Shown here: positions 35,600 through 41,545 of the stretch, in pieces
Numbering within the stretch: the stretch's first letter is position 1
Layout: each line of letters begins with the position of its first letter
Origin: a virus
Lineage: Duplodnaviria; Caudoviricetes
Strand: one strand, 5' to 3'
DNA length: 64,000 nt
IMG/VR virus record: IMGVR_UViG_3300033463_000005
Location: 194,510 to 258,509 of that record
Position numbers and translations under genes: made by a program
Notes under the pieces: generated by a model
What the model was told of the DNA's origin: nothing
The model's input: only the letters and a program-made list of their open reading frames with translations
Databases searched by the model: none

Positions 35600-37294
35600 A
35601 TGAGCAGAATTTCAAAAGAAGTGTCCGAACGACAAAAGACATTTGGTAATGAAATGCCGGATCTGAAAATCGTTCGAAACTTTATGAATGGGATTTCATA
35701 TAAACTCGATCCCATTCAGACCCTGAAGATGATTGCCGCTTCATCCATCTTCGGTGAACCTTCCTACTATCGGGAAGGTGGTCTGAAAGAGAAGAAAATC
35801 ACATTTAAAACAGAGGAAAAGTGTGATATCAAACCTCTGTTCAAAGATATGATTCTCAATAAGACTACCACAGAGGTATTTGAAGAAGCAATTGATGCAG
35901 CACTGGAGTATGACTTCGGTGCAACAATTCAACTTGCAATTGAATTGCGTGAGAAGTATCTCATGCGGTTGAATCCGCAAGTCATCATGGTTCGTGCCGC
36001 AATCCATCCTAGTAGAAAGGAATGGACAAAACACCATAAAGGTGAATTCATCACGGCAAACAACCGCGTGATGAAACGTGGTGATGAACCAGCAACCCAA
36101 CTGGCGTATTTTATCTATGTTACCGGATCGAAAGCCAATATGCCATCGATTCTGAAACGGTCGTTGGCTGCAAGACTCGGAACATTGACAAAATACGAAG
36201 TCAACAAGTATAAGAATTCCGAAATGGGTATGATTAATACCGTGCGTATTGTTCATGCAAATTCGGATGTTCTGAACGAGTTGATGGAGACAGGTTCCGT
36301 GTCAGTTGGCACGGAAGAAAAAACGTGGGAGAATCTTCTCTCGGATGGAATGTCATGGAAAGACCTAGCATTGCAGGTATATGCCGGTAATATTAAACTC
36401 CCTGCAATGGCATTGATCAGAAACCTTCGAAATATCTTTATGGCATTTGCTGCAGATAATTCGGTAAAACCCGAAGTATATCAGTTTTTCCATGATAAAC
36501 TCATCAAAGATGTCCCGTATGCCAGACAGTTCCCGTTCCGATACAAATCGGCATATAATGCGATTGAATCTTCGCCATTACCAATTGCAATCAAGTATCC
36601 GTTACTGGATACATTGTCGCAGTGCGTGGATTTATCAATTGATAATATGCCGCATTTGATGGGAACAACCGTTTGCTTGACGGATAATTCGGGTTCTGCA
36701 TGGGGCGGCTTCACCTCGGAATTCGGATCAGTTTGTGTTGCAAACATTGATAACCTTTCATCTGTGATTGCCGCAAAAGCATCCGATGCAGGTATGGTTG
36801 TGAAGTTCGGTGATAACTTCATCGAATATCCAATCTCCCGTCGTGATTCGGTTTTGACACAGGTTAAACCGATTGATGCCCGCGGTAGTTCTGATGTGGG
36901 TGGTTCCACGGAAGGTGGAATCTGGAAGTTCATGAAGAAAGCGATTACCGAAAAGATTCATTTCGATAATCTGTTTATCTTCTCCGATCAGCAAGCCGGT
37001 ACAGGCGGGTTGTATGGAACTTCCGAAGATATGTACGAATACTGCCAGAAAGGATACAATGTCCGTAGCAGAATGATTGATGTATTCGCACTCATCAATG
37101 CATATCGCAAGGCGGTCAATCCAAGACTGAATGTATTCTCGGTCCAGACTGCTGGATATAATAACCTTGTTATTCCGACCATGACATATCGGACAGCTAT
37201 GCTCACGGGTTGGACTGGTAAGGAGGTTTCATTCGCTGCTGAGTACATCAGACAGTGGGATGCAATCGAAATGAAATCTGGCAATAATATGTGA
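35600..37294 (+). CDS. Ro60/TROVE domain RNA-binding protein (Rsr-like)
   Basis: N-terminal NFMNGISY...FGEPSYY, TWE..LS, ALIRNLRNI, QFPFRY..AY TROVE motifs; vWA MIDAS DNSGS and IFSDQQ; C-terminal GW. Confidence 0.92.
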   Translation: MSRISKEVSERQKTFGNEMPDLKIVRNFMNGISYKLDPIQTLKMIAASSIFGEPSYYREGGLKEKKITFKTEEKCDIKPLFKDMILNKTTTEVFEEAIDAALEYDFGATIQLAIELREKYLMRLNPQVIMVRAAIHPSRKEWTKHHKGEFITANNRVMKRGDEPATQLAYFIYVTGSKANMPSILKRSLAARLGTLTKYEVNKYKNSEMGMINTVRIVHANSDVLNELMETGSVSVGTEEKTWENLLSDGMSWKDLALQVYAGNIKLPAMALIRNLRNIFMAFAADNSVKPEVYQFFHDKLIKDVPYARQFPFRYKSAYNAIESSPLPIAIKYPLLDTLSQCVDLSIDNMPHLMGTTVCLTDNSGSAWGGFTSEFGSVCVANIDNLSSVIAAKASDAGMVVKFGDNFIEYPISRRDSVLTQVKPIDARGSSDVGGSTEGGIWKFMKKAITEKIHFDNLFIFSDQQAGTGGLYGTSEDMYEYCQKGYNVRSRMIDVFALINAYRKAVNPRLNVFSVQTAGYNNLVIPTMTYRTAMLTGWTGKEVSFAAEYIRQWDAIEMKSGNNM

Positions 37295-37312: not shown

Positions 37313-37402
37313 ATAGTTGCGATGCGGTGTAATCGGTTACTTCGCCATTTGTTCTAAAAATGATACGAGATCATATACCGGTTATGATATTCTCGCAACT
37401 AT
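37313..37402 (+). ncRNA. candidate Y-like RNA (Ro60-associated module copy 1)
   Basis: terminal stem ATAGTTGCGA/TCGCAACTAT, GATGCGG-helix-TACTTC ... helix-ATATTCTC; starts 19 nt after the Ro60 stop. Confidence 0.65.
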
Positions 37403-37406
37403 CATC

Positions 37407-37492
37407 GTATCAATATTATGATGCAGCCGCATGGGTTACTTCACCTGCATAAATGAATAATACCTGTGTATTTATTCTCATAATGTTGATAC
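37407..37492 (+). ncRNA. candidate Y-like RNA (module copy 2)
   Basis: terminal stem GTATCAATATTATGA/TCATAATGTTGATAC with GATGCAG..TACTTC..TATTCTC. Confidence 0.65.
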
Positions 37493-37496
37493 AAAT

Positions 37497-37570
37497 GCCC
37501 CGGTACCCGAATTGGCATAGGGAGCGGTCTCAAACACCGTGTTTTGTCGGTTCAAGTCCGACTCGGGGTA
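37497..37570 (+). tRNA. tRNA-Leu(CAA), short variable arm
   Basis: acceptor GCCCCGG/TCGGGGT, anticodon arm GCGGT-CTCAAAC-ACCGT, T-loop TTCAAGT. Confidence 0.8.
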
Positions 37571-37674
37571 CTAACTGATGCATGGCATAGATGTTTGCTC
37601 CAAGCATCTATCATCAGTTATCGCGGAATGTATATATGCGGGCATTGCGCCCGCATATATACTATTTCCTTTTG

Positions 37675-38835
37675 CCATGTGTAATGTAATTGTATAGATT
37701 GGAGTGTGTAGTATGAGTTGTGGTGAAGCAGAGTACTGTGAAACCTAGTCGTGTGATGGCATAGTGCATTCACGTTCGTTTTGTTCAGGTGGAGTGGGGT
37801 ATGGTAAAGCATGGTTGTGTGCAGGCATGTGCTAGTGCAGCAGGGTCGTGTTCTACTATGTTCAGGTGAAGCATGGTTATGTTCGGCTACGTTTAGGCGA
37901 AGCAGGGTCTTGTTTCATTGCGTTACGGTGAAGCAAGATGCTGTTCGGCTATGTGGTGGCAAAAGCAAGGCAGTGTCCTATTATGTTCGGGCGGAGCTAG
38001 TCATGTTCTATTACGTCTAGTCCTGGTATGGTTAAGTGGGGAGCTGTACATTGATGGTTTGATCAAGTGATATGCGGTGAAGCATTGGCAACGTGGAGTG
38101 ACGTGGAGAACTGTCTCGTCACGGCGTGCGCTATAACGTATGGTGACGGCAAAGCAACGTAGTGCGCGTCCATGCGACGGTTTAGTACCGAGCAGCCTAC
38201 CTATGTAATGGAACTGTCGAGTCGTGTCACGCAGAGTTCAGTATTTGTGGGGGACTGTACAGTTGAGAAAGGCAATGTTCTGGCAGGGAACGGTCAGGTA
38301 GTATTGTGTTTAGGTGGAGTAAGGTCGCGTTTTGTTTAGGCGGAGTAGCGTGAAGTTCAGTACAGTTCTGGAAACGTAACGTGACGTAACAAAGCGTCTG
38401 GAACATTGATGCAACGGTTCGGTGCCGTAGTGGTGGTTTGTGCTGTGTCGCTATTGTGTTGTCCTGCGAGGGAACGTGGGGGCAGCGTTCGGTTGTGCCC
38501 CGTATCGCAAAGGCAAGGCACGGTAGTGCGCATCCTATGTGTAGGTGGAGTCTCGTTGCGAGAGGCAACGCTTTGTTATGGTTTGGCTTAGCCACATATT
38601 ATTTCGATACAGTATGGGTTTAATCTGGAGCTGTGATGGAACGGCACTGTTTAGCAAGGCAGTGTCAGGGTTATCCTATGCGTTGTAGAACCAAGCGATG
38701 GAAATGTTATGGTCAGTGTACTGCCGTAACGTCGTGGTATTGTGAGGTAGCGTCATGTAATGCTTAGGCAACGCCGTGTAACACAATGTCACGTCCCATT
38801 TCGTCATGGAACCGCGCTGTACACACAGTATGGCA
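37675..38835 (+). repeat. non-coding pentamer-periodic array 1 (NN-xRY units, ~31-nt super-repeat GGYRAAGC)
   Basis: GGYRA(A)AGC-like anchors at 37865, 37896, 37927, 37958, 37990 (31,31,31,32 nt apart) separated by pentamers such as ATGGT TATGT TCGGC TACGT; G/T-rich, no credible ORF. Confidence 0.85.
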
Positions 38836-38911
38836 TCTGCCACAAAGTATGTAATCCGACATTTTGAAATATAAATGTCGGATATGCATACTCTATATTA
38901 CTTATGTAAAT

Positions 38912-38985
38912 CGGGGTTTAGCTCAGATGGTACGAGCGCCTGGTTTGGGACCAGGAGGCCATCGGTTCGAGACCGATATCCCCGA
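38912..38985 (+). tRNA. tRNA-Pro(TGG)
   Basis: CGGGGTT acceptor, CCTGG-TTTGGGA-CCAGG anticodon arm, TTCGAGA T-loop. Confidence 0.88.
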
Positions 38986-38990
38986 CTCGT

Positions 38991-39131
38991 CATTCATTCA
39001 GTTGATGCAGTGAATCAAGATACTTCGGTTAATAATATTATTGGAAAAATATTTATAAGGTTCAAATCCTTAAACACCCCAGCGATAGTTGGAGTGACAT
39101 ATTCTTGGTTCGATATTCTCAACAATGAATG
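38991..39131 (+). ncRNA. candidate YrlA-like RNA (module copy 3 enclosing a T-arm)
   Basis: GTTGATGCAG-TGAATCAAGA-TACTTC ... TAAGG-TTCAAAT-CCTTA ... TCTTGGTTC-GATATTCTCAAC. Confidence 0.65.
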
Positions 39132-39140
39132 TTTGACAAC

Positions 39141-39306
39141 TGTCATCAATATAAGTGTAATTGGCATTGGTGAGAACGCCGTTGTGAGATGTGGAATTAA
39201 AGAACATCTATTAGTGTATATGGCAAACTGCAGATTGTCATATATGCCACAATTCGCGGGCATGGGTCGAATAACTACCCCGAAATTACAAACTGTATTG
39301 ATGACA
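39141..39306 (+). ncRNA. unknown structured RNA
   Basis: 11-bp closing stem TGTCATCAATA/TATTGATGACA enclosing internal hairpins. Confidence 0.4.
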
Positions 39307-39309
39307 AAT

Positions 39310-39403
39310 GGTCATGTCTTCTAGTGGCAAGATACTTCATACATTGCAAGGCGCCCTTGTATTGTGTATGATAGAGACTCCGGTTCGATTCCGGACGTGA
39401 TTT
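39310..39403 (+). ncRNA. tRNA-like RNA with long hairpin in place of the anticodon arm
   Basis: acceptor GGTCATG/CGTGATT, D-loop TAGTGG, T arm TCCGG-TTCGATT-CCGGA; TCATACA..CAAGG-CGC-CCTTG..TGTATGA hairpin. Confidence 0.6.
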
Positions 39404-39487
39404 TCGTGGCATAGTTACACACGTCGATACATATCGATGCAACCAGTGTGTGGTTGCGGCTATGTCACGTACCAACGATATTCATTT

Positions 39488-39659
39488 ATACAAGTATGCA
39501 AGTGGTCATAAGCGGCTCACGTAAGTGAGAGGACACCTAATAAAAATACTCGTTCATGATTTCTCGTCCACTTATGTGGCGATGCAGTTGAATGGGTTAC
39601 TTCGATTACATATAATTGATCACATTATGTGTACGCGGGTTCGAATCCCGCCTTGTATA
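39488..39659 (+). ncRNA. tRNA scaffold carrying permuted Y-like module (copy 4)
   Basis: acceptor ATACAAG/CTTGTAT, D-loop AAGTGG, T arm GCGGG-TTCGAAT-CCCGC; insert ACTCGTTCA-TGATTTCTCG..CGATGCAG-TTGAATGGGT-TACTTC. Confidence 0.68.
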
Positions 39660-39673
39660 TATGAATATCTATG

Positions 39674-39809
39674 GGAGGATTAGCTCAGTTGGTAGAGCAC
39701 GAAACATAACTCGTTGCGTTATTCTCGGGACCCAAAGTGCCCGATGCAGTGTGATGAGTTACTTCGCATATGGCGCGCGTGGTCGTAGGTTCGAGTCCTA
39801 CATCCTCCG
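39674..39809 (+). ncRNA. tRNA scaffold carrying permuted Y-like module (copy 5)
   Basis: GGAGGAT/ATCCTCC acceptor, canonical D arm TAGCTCAGTTGGTAGAGC, T arm GTAGG-TTCGAGT-CCTAC; insert AACTCGTTGCG-TTATTCTCGGG..CCCGATGCAG-TGTGATGAGTT-ACTTC. Confidence 0.75.
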
Positions 39810-39986: not shown

Positions 39987-40330
39987 TCGTCGTCGAAGGC
40001 ATTGTCTTCGCCGACAAAAAGAAGTTCCATCCGACCAAAATCGGGAAAAAGAATTAGCGCCAGAATTCTTGGGTTATTGTCTGCCGCGATATTTCCTGCC
40101 TGGGTGAAATAGCGTCCTAGGTGAAGAACTGATGAGTGCACGCATCGGCATGTGTAGTTCTCAGAAGAGGTCTTCAACACGTGCAACACGTAGAGAAATC
40201 TCCGGCCAAGGGTCCTGGTTTCCGGATCAAGATTTCTCAACCGCACCGAAATCCGCGGCGCGGTAGATTAGGGCCCAAAATAGTAGAGGTGTGTTGAAGC
40301 GGGTACTTTAATCAGTTCTCGTGGAGCACC
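39987..40330 (+). ncRNA. unknown GC-rich structured RNA
   Basis: nested helices AGAACTGA/TCAGTTCT, CTTCAACAC/GTGTTGAAG, GAGAAATCT/AGATTTCTC; no ORF. Confidence 0.55.
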
Positions 40331-40334
40331 TCGG

Positions 40335-40429
40335 GGTGTATTAGCTCAGTGGGTAGAGCGCCAGTTCGTGGTTAGTGACTATGTCCTCATGAACTGTAGA
40401 GGTCGCGGGTTCGAGCCCCGTATACACTC
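40335..40429 (+). ncRNA. tRNA-like RNA with expanded anticodon arm
   Basis: GGTGTAT/ATACACT acceptor, canonical D and T arms, 9-bp CAGTTCGTG/CATGAACTG stem with 17-nt loop. Confidence 0.62.
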
Positions 40430-40434
40430 TTTAT

Positions 40435-40514
40435 TCCCGCATAGCTCAGACGGTAAAGAGCATAGCGAGCGGCCGTTAACCGCTAGGTCGTAGGTTCAAG
40501 TCCTACTGCGGGAA
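40435..40514 (+). tRNA. atypical tRNA-Asn(GTT) (insertion after D arm, C33)
   Basis: same acceptor and T arm as the 39911 tRNA; AGCGG-CCGTTAA-CCGCT; ~6 extra nt between D and anticodon stems. Confidence 0.62.
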
Positions 40515-40527
40515 CCGTTTCAATTAG

Positions 40528-40552
40528 TGAGGGGACCTTCGGGTCCCCTCAT
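40528..40552 (+). terminator. intrinsic terminator
   Basis: TGAGGGGACC-TTCG-GGTCCCCTCA then T-rich tract. Confidence 0.75.
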
Positions 40553-40642: not shown

Positions 40643-41545
40643 ATGTCAAAACCGCATAATGAAAAGAGAGTTGAATTTGTATCAGCTCGCATCAAAGATC
40701 TGCAGGATACAATTGCGGCACTGCAGAAAATTCTTGACAATCCTGACATAGGCGAAAAACGAGTAGTTGAAGAACTCGGGTTAGACTTTGCGAAATATCG
40801 TCGCTTCGTTTATGATCTTACCTGGATAAACAAAGCGACAGTATCCGCAAATGTAACTGATATGAAGCCAATCAAAAACTGTGTAACATGCTGCTGGCAA
40901 GAATTGTTGTGGTTGGATATATGTCGTTGCAACTCGGCTAATATAGCTGTGGCGCCAACAGACACAGTTGAAACGATTGACAACATCATTTCGGAATTGT
41001 CCGAAAGAGAGCAATTGGTTATACATATGCGATTCGAGGAAGGTTTGTTCCTCGATGAATGTGCTAAAAGGATTGGTGTAACTCGCGGACGTGCTGGTGA
41101 GATTTTGAAACGGGCAGAGACGAGAATCAAATACAAGTATGACAGACTCAGACTTGGCGATGGTAAATATGGAACCATCATCGGAATGCAACGCCGATTG
41201 GAAGACGATCTCGAGATCAAAATAAAAAGAGAGATCATCGAGAAGTTGGACTGCAGAATCGAATCTCTTGCAGCCCTAATAAAGGATGCGTATAATACTA
41301 TAAATGGCGCTGAAGAAAAACAAAAAGAATCGACTTCCTATGTGAGACTATTGCGTTATACCCCGCTTGAAAATCTGGAATTATCGGTAAGATCATATAA
41401 TTGTCTGAAGCGAGCGGGATACAAATGTCTCAATGATTTCTGTGACAAAACTCTCACCGATATTAAGAAAATAAGGAACATTGGTAGGAAATCATACGAA
41501 GAGATTGTTGAGAAGCTCACAGAAGTGGGCATATGTTTGGAATGA
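40643..41545 (+). CDS. sigma-70 region-4 HTH fused to RNA polymerase alpha-CTD
   Basis: LSEREQLVIHMRF..GLFLDECAKRIGVTRGRAGEI (sigma r4); PLENLELSVRSYNCLKRAG...KIRNIGRKSYEEI (alphaCTD). Confidence 0.85.
   Translation: MSKPHNEKRVEFVSARIKDLQDTIAALQKILDNPDIGEKRVVEELGLDFAKYRRFVYDLTWINKATVSANVTDMKPIKNCVTCCWQELLWLDICRCNSANIAVAPTDTVETIDNIISELSEREQLVIHMRFEEGLFLDECAKRIGVTRGRAGEILKRAETRIKYKYDRLRLGDGKYGTIIGMQRRLEDDLEIKIKREIIEKLDCRIESLAALIKDAYNTINGAEEKQKESTSYVRLLRYTPLENLELSVRSYNCLKRAGYKCLNDFCDKTLTDIKKIRNIGRKSYEEIVEKLTEVGICLE

What the first reader, a model, noticed from the sequence alone, without database searches (positions are those of the whole stretch)
38991..39809. tRNA/Y-RNA chimeras in both circular permutations
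Seen: at 39674-39809 a textbook tRNA (7-bp acceptor, canonical D arm, T arm) has its anticodon loop replaced by the Ro-associated module in swapped order, with the ATTCTC strand first, a capping hairpin, then the GATGCAG..TACTTC strand. 39488-39659 has the same design. At 38991-39131 the module is instead at the RNA ends and encloses a T-arm (TAAGG-TTCAAAT-CCTTA). Known: YrlA RNAs are tRNA mimics with the Ro-binding stem at the termini. Inference: this locus shows both topologies. The un-permuted forms keep a free acceptor end, so they could be RNase P/CCA-processed or even aminoacylated Ro60 tethers, or anticodon-less decoys against host tRNA-cleaving defences. They may also represent an evolutionary intermediate between tRNA and YrlA.
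Basis: partly seen in the sequence, partly recalled or inferred. Interest (0 to 1): 0.8.

Follow-up and report, generated by a model that had tools for sequence, protein, structure and literature searches.

The report
tRNA-framed Y RNAs beside phage Ro60
Two small RNA genes in a giant phage's tRNA cluster are complete tRNA bodies whose anticodon arm is replaced by the docking helix for the phage's own Ro60 protein. This is the known bacterial "YrlA" Y RNA with normal tRNA strand order and a free acceptor end, a recurrent form I did not find described in print.

Summary
Element D (39674-39809) and element C (39488-39659) are un-permuted tRNA scaffolds. Each has a 7/7-paired acceptor stem, a D arm and a T arm. 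In place of the anticodon arm they carry a capped bulged helix: AUUCUC strand, hairpin cap, then GAUGCAG-N9-UACUUC strand. The same handle closes the ends of element A (38991-39131), of two simple Y RNAs (37313-37402, 37411-37488) and probably of element B. All lie downstream of a Ro60/TROVE gene (35600-37294).

The handle motif occurs four times in the 258.5-kb genome, all in this locus. Public scans gave 35 distinct scaffold-type relatives with strong covariation, and Ro60 homologues wherever enough contig is held. Canonical permuted YrlAs are commoner in the same phages, and Bacillus phage G has only those.

In relatives, 18 of 35 carry the tRNA-His acceptor signature (AUG leader, G-1:C73), against 4 of 113 ordinary tRNAs, all four tRNA-His. 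Encoded CCA follows each locus's tRNA habit. Loops of permuted YrlAs often read C73-CCA-spacer-AUG. This fits the published dimeric-tRNA origin model.

Most likely these are Ro60 tethers matured like tRNAs. Binding, processing and charging are untested. I class it as a new variant of a known kind. This scan found the same design earlier in another phage (e1-5339959).

The parts
35600..37294 (+). Ro60/TROVE-like protein gene (564 aa)
   Evidence: Pfam TROVE, E=5.5e-6. PHROG 850 'RNA-binding protein', E=4e-35 over aa 21-547. Thermus phage phiLo Ro60 structures 9KOP/9L5Y, E=1e-7. 47% identical to Bacillus phage G gp540.
37313..37402 (+). Y1: simple Y RNA with the handle at its ends. Helix 1 is AUAGUUGCG/CGCAACUAU, the loop is AUGCGG opposite AUAUUCU, helix 2 is 10 bp, then UACUUC.
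   Evidence: Sequence. The MFE fold reproduces the design, z=-2.8.
37411..37488 (+). Y2: second simple Y RNA with a terminal handle.
   Evidence: The fold is weaker (z=-1.0).
37630..37662 (+). Terminator-like hairpin ending the Ro60-Y1-Y2-tRNA-Leu unit
   Evidence: 14-bp stem followed by a T run. Consensus scan only.
38991..39131 (+). Element A: handle at the RNA ends, enclosing T arm 39056-39072 and hairpin 39075-39096, with no D arm (YrlB-like).
   Evidence: MFE -36.7, z=-3.9; coordinates.
39295..39491 (+). Element B (tentative): terminal stem, degenerate handle (UGACA in place of UGCAG), UACUUC at 39333, T arm at 39379-39395. Its 3' strand overlaps C's acceptor by 4 nt.
   Evidence: z=-3.9. 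It lacks the canonical internal loop in the MFE fold.
39488..39659 (+). Element C: un-permuted, class-II-like tRNA scaffold with a capped handle.
- Acceptor 39488-39494 with 39652-39658.
- D region 39497-39514.
- Extra hairpin 39516-39529.
- Helix 2, 39548-39556 with 39589-39597.
- Loops 39557-39564 and 39582-39587.
- Helix 1 plus cap, 39565-39581.
- UACUUC 39598-39603.
- Long variable arm 39608-39632.
- T arm 39635-39651.
- A73 at 39659.
   Evidence: 7/7 acceptor pairs. CM R1 95.6 bits, but C is a seed member.
39674..39809 (+). Element D: un-permuted, tRNA-Asn-like scaffold with a capped handle.
- Acceptor 39674-39680 with 39802-39808.
- D arm 39683-39698.
- Helix 2, 39708-39718 with 39750-39760.
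- Loop UUAUUCU 39719-39725.
- Helix 1 plus cap, 39726-39743.
- Loop AUGCAG 39744-39749.
- UACUUC 39760-39765.
- T arm 39785-39801.
- G73 at 39809.
- Leader UAUG.
   Evidence: Rfam tRNA 46.5 bits with a 76-nt insertion. Module MFE -19.6. The body is nearest to tRNA-Asn. Leader.
40527..40552 (+). Terminator-like hairpin ending the tRNA / Y-RNA polycistron
   Evidence: 11-bp stem, 7 GC pairs. Consensus scan only.

Best explanation
C and D are Y RNAs of the phage's own Ro60 protein, built on intact, un-permuted tRNA bodies.

Anatomy. The anticodon arm is replaced by the Ro60 handle. The handle is a roughly 10-bp helix 2, then an asymmetric internal loop (GA[U/A]GC[A/G]G opposite [A/U]UUCUC), then a short helix 1 closed by a variable cap. 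A conserved UACUUC sits one helical turn away from the loop.

Maturation. The RNAs lie inside a tRNA polycistron and keep a 7-bp acceptor stem, the D/T elbow nucleotides and a discriminator. They are therefore most likely cut out by RNase P and the 3' tRNA-processing enzymes, and given CCA like their tRNA neighbours.

Function. Ro60 then binds the handle, while the tRNA-shaped upper half presents an elbow and a free acceptor end to a tRNA-binding partner. The RNA thus tethers or gates Ro60, as YrlA does.

Relation to YrlA. Topologically this is YrlA with the chain break moved from the Ro stem to the acceptor stem. The adjacent pair C-D shows how a head-to-tail pair of such genes yields a permuted YrlA: strand A and T arm of the first, spacer, then D arm and strand B of the second.

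What is shown and what is inferred. Shown: anatomy, recurrence, covariation and linkage to Ro60 genes. Inferred: Ro60 binding, the processing route and the tether function.
For: 1. Anatomy and chance.
2. Ro60 gene directly upstream.
3. The handle is shared with Bacillus phage G, whose Ro60 is 47% identical. Phage G has at least 7 copies, including a canonical YrlA at L001:3779-3935.
4. 35 distinct scaffold-type relatives have 7/7 acceptor pairs, drawn from viral, genome and metagenome collections.
5. Covariation on 32 distinct sequences: 90.7% of cells paired, against 69% in shuffles and about 40% when the partners are slid. 25 of 29 pairs show double changes. Acceptor and T stems are 100% paired. 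The 10-sequence set agrees, and RNAalifold predicts the same helices on its own.
6. The isolated module of 7 sequences folds by MFE into the same helix 2 / loop / helix 1 / cap design.
7. A TROVE gene is present in all 5 other viral contigs tested. Ro60 homologues (25-66% identical; most 45-57%) lie in 49 loci that were fetched by RNA pattern alone.
8. The cis reading is favoured. C and D folded together keep their own acceptors. Cis handle duplexes are -20.7 and -18.9 kcal/mol, against -11.7 for the trans duplex (C's strand A with D's strand B).
9. tRNA-like treatment. There are no terminators between tRNA-Pro and 40527. In relatives, encoded CCA follows each locus's own tRNA habit.
10. Precedent. 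M. smegmatis YrlA is cut by RNase P and receives CCA (PMC4201824). Phage phiLo Ro60 binds phage Y-like RNAs and host PNPase (PMC12135203).
Against: - No transcript, end-mapping or binding data exist for this uncultured phage.
- The handle differs from the published GNCGAAN0-1G motif by one base in this window.
- Rfam's YrlA model does not reach threshold on any element. Its best score is 25.8 bits against a gathering score of 69, and that match spans the C/D junction.
- It is unknown whether Ro60 tolerates a capped helix 1.
- C's D arm is degenerate.
- The covariation alignments were fitted to a model built from my own structure, so they lean towards it.
- The phage encodes no CCA-adding enzyme or RtcB, so processing must rely on the host.
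Confidence: 0.7

Rival explanations
1. The real RNA is one canonical, permuted YrlA read across the junction. It would run from strand A and T arm of C, through the spacer, to the D arm and strand B of D. On this reading the flanking halves are leftovers.
For: Rfam's YrlA model aligns 39609-39723 in exactly this way (25.8 bits, E=0.009). Eight base pairs are possible between C's strand A and D's strand B.
Against: - The score is far below the gathering score of 69. Chen et al. 2014 warn that dimeric tRNAs give such false positives.
- The helix 1 sequences of C and D differ, and each pairs only with its own partner.
- Both acceptor stems pair 7/7 in cis.
- The trans duplex is -11.7 kcal/mol, against -20.7 and -18.9 in cis.
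- In other contigs the scaffold type stands alone beside ordinary tRNAs, for example L036:4634-4767.
Confidence: 0.05
2. C and D are tRNA genes with an intervening sequence that is removed to give decoding tRNAs, or they are decaying tRNA pseudogenes.
For: Rfam's tRNA model hits D. Phage tRNA clusters do hold interrupted and degenerate tRNAs.
Against: - Removing the insert leaves no 5-bp anticodon stem or 7-nt loop. Only 2 bp (CG/CG) remain in D.
- The insert is conserved and covaries in 35 sequences from many environments.
- It is the same handle that closes ordinary Y RNAs next to Ro60.
- At about 76 nt the insert is too short for a group I intron. I saw no bulge-helix-bulge motif by eye.
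Confidence: 0.03
3. They act independently of Ro60, as sponges or decoys for host tRNA-targeting defence proteins or tRNA-modifying or processing enzymes. The handle would serve some other partner.
For: The tRNA elbow and acceptor end are intact. Phages are known to counter tRNA-cleaving defences with their own tRNAs (my own knowledge, not tested here).
Against: - There is no anticodon loop, which is the usual target of anticodon nucleases.
- The handle co-occurs with Ro60 genes wherever enough contig is available.
- The same handle closes RNAs that have no tRNA part at all (Y1, Y2).
Confidence: 0.1

Closest known systems
YrlA (Y RNA-like A; Rfam RF02553; Chen et al. 2014, PMC4201824; Wang et al. 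2018, 10.1101/312249)
   Same: - Encoded beside Ro60.
- A bulged Ro-binding helix with a CGA[A/U]G-type 5' strand.
- A tRNA-like domain with T arm, D arm, variable region and acceptor-like stem.
- The Ro helix attached where the anticodon stem would be.
   Different: - In YrlA the chain ends are in the Ro helix and the acceptor-like stem is closed by a loop. The authors describe these as 'circularly permuted tRNAs'.
- In C and D the Ro helix is capped and the ends are in a true 7-bp acceptor stem with a discriminator.
- The Rfam model does not reach threshold.
[quoted passage not shown]
   Same: A Ro60-bound tRNA mimic with a free, CCA-bearing acceptor end.
   Different: There the free end arises by cutting a permuted precursor, giving a two-piece RNA. 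Here a one-piece molecule is encoded directly in tRNA order.
Bacillus phage G Y RNAs (closest Ro60, 47% identity; L001)
   Same: The same three-part handle (GA[A/U]GCGG ... [A/U]AUCUC ... UACUUC), with several copies near Ro60 and tRNAs.
   Different: Phage G has only terminal-handle forms, including one canonical permuted YrlA. The scaffold model finds none in its 497 kb.
Dimeric-tRNA origin model of YrlA (Sim and Wolin 2018, as cited in 10.1101/312249)
   Same: The adjacent pair C-D and the C73-CCA-spacer-AUG loops of permuted relatives match a T arm from a first unit and a D arm from a second.
   Different: The model starts from ordinary tRNAs. The data here suggest the Ro handle already sat in the anticodon arm before duplication.
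tmRNA, and engineered 'tRNA scaffold' RNA expression (my own knowledge)
   Same: A tRNA acceptor/T framework carries a foreign functional RNA in place of the anticodon arm. tmRNA is charged through an anticodon-independent identity pair.
   Different: There is no mRNA-like part and no SmpB link. Charging is not shown here.

Membership tests
Y RNA / YrlA (RF02553) | Encoded next to a Ro60/TROVE gene | tested here: met
   Ro60 lies at 35600-37294, and the RNAs lie 0.02-2.5 kb downstream on the same strand. Relatives show the same linkage.
Y RNA / YrlA (RF02553) | Bulged helix with the 5'-strand motif GNCGAAN0-1G | tested here: inconclusive
   C reads GGCGAUG and D reads CCCGAUG, each one substitution away. 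Relative L065 reads ACGAAG. The architecture of helix, asymmetric loop and helix is met.
Y RNA / YrlA (RF02553) | tRNA-like domain with T and D arms and tertiary-pair nucleotides | tested here: met
   D aligns to the Rfam tRNA model, with U8, A14, G18G19, the UUCGA T loop and C48 in place. C is weaker in the D arm.
Y RNA / YrlA (RF02553) | Chain termini in the Ro-binding stem, with the acceptor-like stem closed by a loop | tested here: not met
   C and D have a capped Ro helix and open 7-bp acceptor stems. Elements A, Y1 and Y2 do meet this feature.
Y RNA / YrlA (RF02553) | Rfam gathering score (69 bits) | tested here: not met
   The best score is 25.8 bits, across the C/D junction. Phage G's canonical YrlA also scores only 36.2 bits.
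Y RNA / YrlA (RF02553) | Physical binding by Ro60 | not testable with these tools
   Needs EMSA or co-immunoprecipitation.
tRNA (RF00005) | Cloverleaf scoring above the Rfam gathering score | tested here: met
   D scores 46.5 bits against 29. C is not reported by Rfam.
tRNA (RF00005) | Anticodon stem-loop able to decode | tested here: not met
   ARAGORN calls neither element. Rfam places a 76-nt insertion where the anticodon arm should be.

The most novel reading that the evidence does not exclude
The free acceptor end is used: many family members are aminoacylated without an anticodon. 18 of 35 relatives carry the bacterial tRNA-His identity set (AUG leader, G-1:C73, plus CCA where the locus encodes it) on bodies that are not tRNA-His-like. 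Six carry G3:U70, the Ala determinant. Several, including C in this window, are class II bodies. A charged Y RNA would couple the phage Ro60 particle to a synthetase, EF-Tu or the ribosome, much as tmRNA is coupled. For the window's own C and D the signature is incomplete: D has the G-1 leader but G73.
Probability: 0.2. Interest if true: 0.9.

Novelty: new variant of a known kind. Interest (0 to 1): 0.7.

Why it matters
- Y RNAs are the obligate partners of Ro60 from bacteria to humans, yet what the tRNA-like half of bacterial YrlA does is unknown.
- A widespread natural form with tRNA strand order, a real acceptor end and, in many members, a synthetase identity signature makes that question testable. 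Does the particle use tRNA enzymes, CCA or charging?
- It also supplies the missing step for the proposal that YrlA arose from tandem tRNA genes.
- It is a natural version of the engineered 'tRNA scaffold' trick for making stable RNAs.
- Current annotation misses these genes. Rfam calls D a tRNA and ignores C.

Tried and rejected
- A protein-pattern search for the Ro60 in viral contigs found nothing. RNA patterns worked instead.
- The MAFFT alignment A1 mis-registers helix 2 in four sequences. I realigned with a covariance model, which biases towards my structure. I therefore also report per-sequence MFE folds and RNAalifold.
- My first count of encoded CCA in neighbouring tRNAs used a faulty boundary finder and is wrong. 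replace it. CCA is not specially enriched in scaffolds; it simply follows the locus habit.
- I considered a conserved 8th pair at -1:73 for all members (31 of 35). The control killed this: 89 of 113 ordinary tRNAs also 'pair' there, because U-1 and A73 are both common. Only the G-1:C73 subset stands.
- I tested whether G-1:C73 scaffolds are simply tRNA-His derivatives. Their D/T bodies are nearest to Asn, Pro, Lys and Phe, not His.
- No RtcB or CCA-adding enzyme is encoded in the phage.
- Two reviews (Sim and Wolin 2018; Sim et al. 2020) are not held, so I cannot exclude that they mention such forms.
- Metagenome records cannot be searched whole.
- BLAST of the region against phages matches only the ordinary tRNAs.

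Full report
**What is there.** The window is the last 64 kb of a 258.5-kb, roughly 96%-complete uncultured phage contig.
- An ORF at 35600-37294 is a Ro60/TROVE protein. It matches Pfam TROVE (E=5.5e-6) and PHROG 850 over its whole length (E=4e-35). It matches the solved Ro60 of Thermus phage phiLo (E=1e-7). It is 47% identical to Bacillus phage G gp540.
- From its stop codon to 40640 there is no convincing ORF. The stretch holds tRNAs and tRNA-like genes instead.
- Terminator-like hairpins at 37630-37662 and 40527-40552 divide it into two units. The first is Ro60-Y1-Y2-tRNA-Leu. The second is a later tRNA polycistron that contains elements A, B, C and D.

**The handle.** One three-part module recurs.
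- Helix 1 comes first, then an asymmetric internal loop with GAUGC(A/G)G on one strand and (A/U)UUCUC on the other.
- A helix 2 of about 10 bp follows, with UACUUC directly after its GAUGCAG-side strand.
- ATGCAG-N10-TACTTC occurs four times in the whole genome, all on the + strand within 37421-39765. About 0.03 would be expected.
- Helix sequences differ between copies but keep pairing.
- The motif GNCGA[U/A]G resembles the published Ro60-binding 5'-strand motif GNCGAAN0-1G (PMC4201824).
- Phage G has at least seven copies of the same handle around its Ro60 gene, written GA[A/U]GCGG ... UACUUC.

**Two topologies.**
- In Y1 (37313-37402), Y2 (37411-37488), A (38991-39131) and probably B (39295-39491), helix 1 is the terminal stem, as in every described Y RNA. 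A and B enclose a T arm.
- In D (39674-39809) and C (39488-39659) the order is: acceptor 5' strand, D arm, AUUCUC strand, capped helix 1, GAUGCAG strand, UACUUC, variable region, T arm, acceptor 3' strand, discriminator.
- Rfam's tRNA model scores D at 46.5 bits, with 76 nt inserted where the anticodon arm belongs. All elbow and core nucleotides are present. No anticodon stem-loop exists or would remain if the insert were removed.
- C is a class-II-like body with a long variable arm and one extra hairpin.

**Cis or trans?** Rfam's YrlA model weakly aligns the T arm of C plus the D arm of D (25.8 bits, gathering score 69). That would be the canonical permuted reading across the junction. I reject it for four reasons.
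- Each acceptor stem is 7/7 paired with its own partner.
- Helix 1 of C and helix 1 of D are each self-complementary but not cross-complementary.
- C and D folded together keep both cloverleaf frames.
- The trans handle duplex is -11.7 kcal/mol, against -20.7 and -18.9 in cis.

**Recurrence elsewhere.**
- Pattern scans of viral, genome and metagenome collections were followed by a covariance model built from seven examples. Together they gave 35 distinct scaffold-type sequences with 7/7 acceptor pairs.
- On 32 distinct aligned sequences, 90.7% of cells pair. Column shuffles give 69% and slid partners about 40%. 25 of 29 pairs show double changes. Acceptor and T stems are 100% paired, the D stem 97.6%, helix 1 98% and helix 2 76.5% (the smaller set is).
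- That alignment is fitted to my model, so I add two independent checks. MFE folds of seven isolated modules all give helix 2 / loop / helix 1 / cap. RNAalifold recovers the acceptor, D, helix 2 and T helices.
- A TROVE gene is present in all five other viral contigs tested. Homologues of this Ro60 (25-66% identical; most 45-57%) lie in 49 loci fetched by RNA pattern alone.
- Canonical permuted YrlAs are commoner in the same data. Phage G has no scaffold-type copy. This genome has only C and D.

**Acceptor-end signatures in relatives.**
- 18 of 35 scaffolds, with 12 different acceptor stems, have G at -1 opposite C73. Only 4 of 113 ordinary tRNAs from the same loci do, and all four are tRNA-His (Fisher 3e-10, not corrected for relatedness).
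- All 18 have AUG at -3..-1, as do the four real tRNA-His genes. None of 109 other tRNAs has it.
- Their D/T bodies are not His-like.
- Six scaffolds have G3:U70.
- Encoded CCA is present where the locus's tRNAs encode it and absent where they do not.
- In this window, D has the UAUG leader but G73 on an Asn-like body. C has U-1:A73. Neither encodes CCA.
- A supposed general -1:73 pair was discarded after the tRNA control.

**Link between the topologies.**
- In 40 permuted YrlAs with 7/7 AS (acceptor-stem-like) stems, the loop often reads discriminator-CCA-spacer-AUG before the 5' strand. One example is ATTCCCG-C-CCA-uuuaug-CGGGAAU in L011. Phage G's YrlA has A-CCA.
- These loops look like the 3' end and the leader of two adjacent scaffold-type genes fused together.
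- This fits the published view that YrlAs are circularly permuted tRNAs that arose from dimeric tRNA transcripts (10.1101/312249).
- It adds that the Ro handle may already have occupied the anticodon arm before duplication. The C-D tandem is that configuration.

**Mechanism.** What is shown is structure, conservation and Ro60 linkage. The rest is inferred.
- RNase P and 3'-end enzymes release C and D from the tRNA transcript.
- Ro60 binds the capped handle.
- The tRNA half recruits a tRNA-binding partner.
- The phage encodes no RtcB or CCA-adding enzyme.

**Novelty.**
- The papers I could search describe only terminal-stem Y RNAs. Two reviews were not available.
- This scan reported the same design earlier in another large phage (e1-5339959).
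- I class it as a new variant of a known kind.

Noticed in passing
window 37313-37402 and 37411-37488: Two simple Y RNAs with the same handle lie directly after the Ro60 stop codon. They are not part of the finding's coordinates.
   Followed up: yes
window 39295-39491: Element B is a strongly folding RNA (z=-3.9) with a T arm, UACUUC and a degenerate handle (UGACA). Its 3' stem strand overlaps C's acceptor by 4 nt, so processing of B and C may compete.
   Followed up: partly
window 37675-38835: A kilobase of short degenerate repeats (GGUGAAGCA-like units) lies between the two RNA units. I did not test that.
   Followed up: no
window 40334-40430 and 40435-40516: A tRNA scaffold whose anticodon arm is a 27-nt-longer hairpin without the Ro handle. 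Next to it is a tRNA-Asn paralogue with an 8-nt D-loop insertion and C33. Similar non-Ro inserts occur at L065:5727-5854 and L067:14619-14722.
   Followed up: partly
window 39987-40330: An ORF-less stretch of about 340 nt between tRNA-Asn and the next tRNA-like gene, with no Rfam match.
   Followed up: no
window 40643-41545: A 300-aa ORF combines sigma-70 region 4 (E=7e-10) with an RNA polymerase alpha C-terminal domain (E=9e-22). This is an unusual fusion.
   Followed up: no
L011, L006, L100, L117, L013 and L001:3779-3935: Loops of the acceptor-like stem in permuted YrlAs often read C73/A73-CCA-spacer-AUG. They look like a fused tRNA 3' end and leader, which suggests these RNAs too may be cut by RNase P.
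   Followed up: partly
L067:13548-13681, L154:756-888, L155:989-1121, L065:5367-5495: Scaffold-type Y RNAs with G3:U70, mostly with A73. This is the alanine identity pair. Only two independent lineages carry it.
   Followed up: partly
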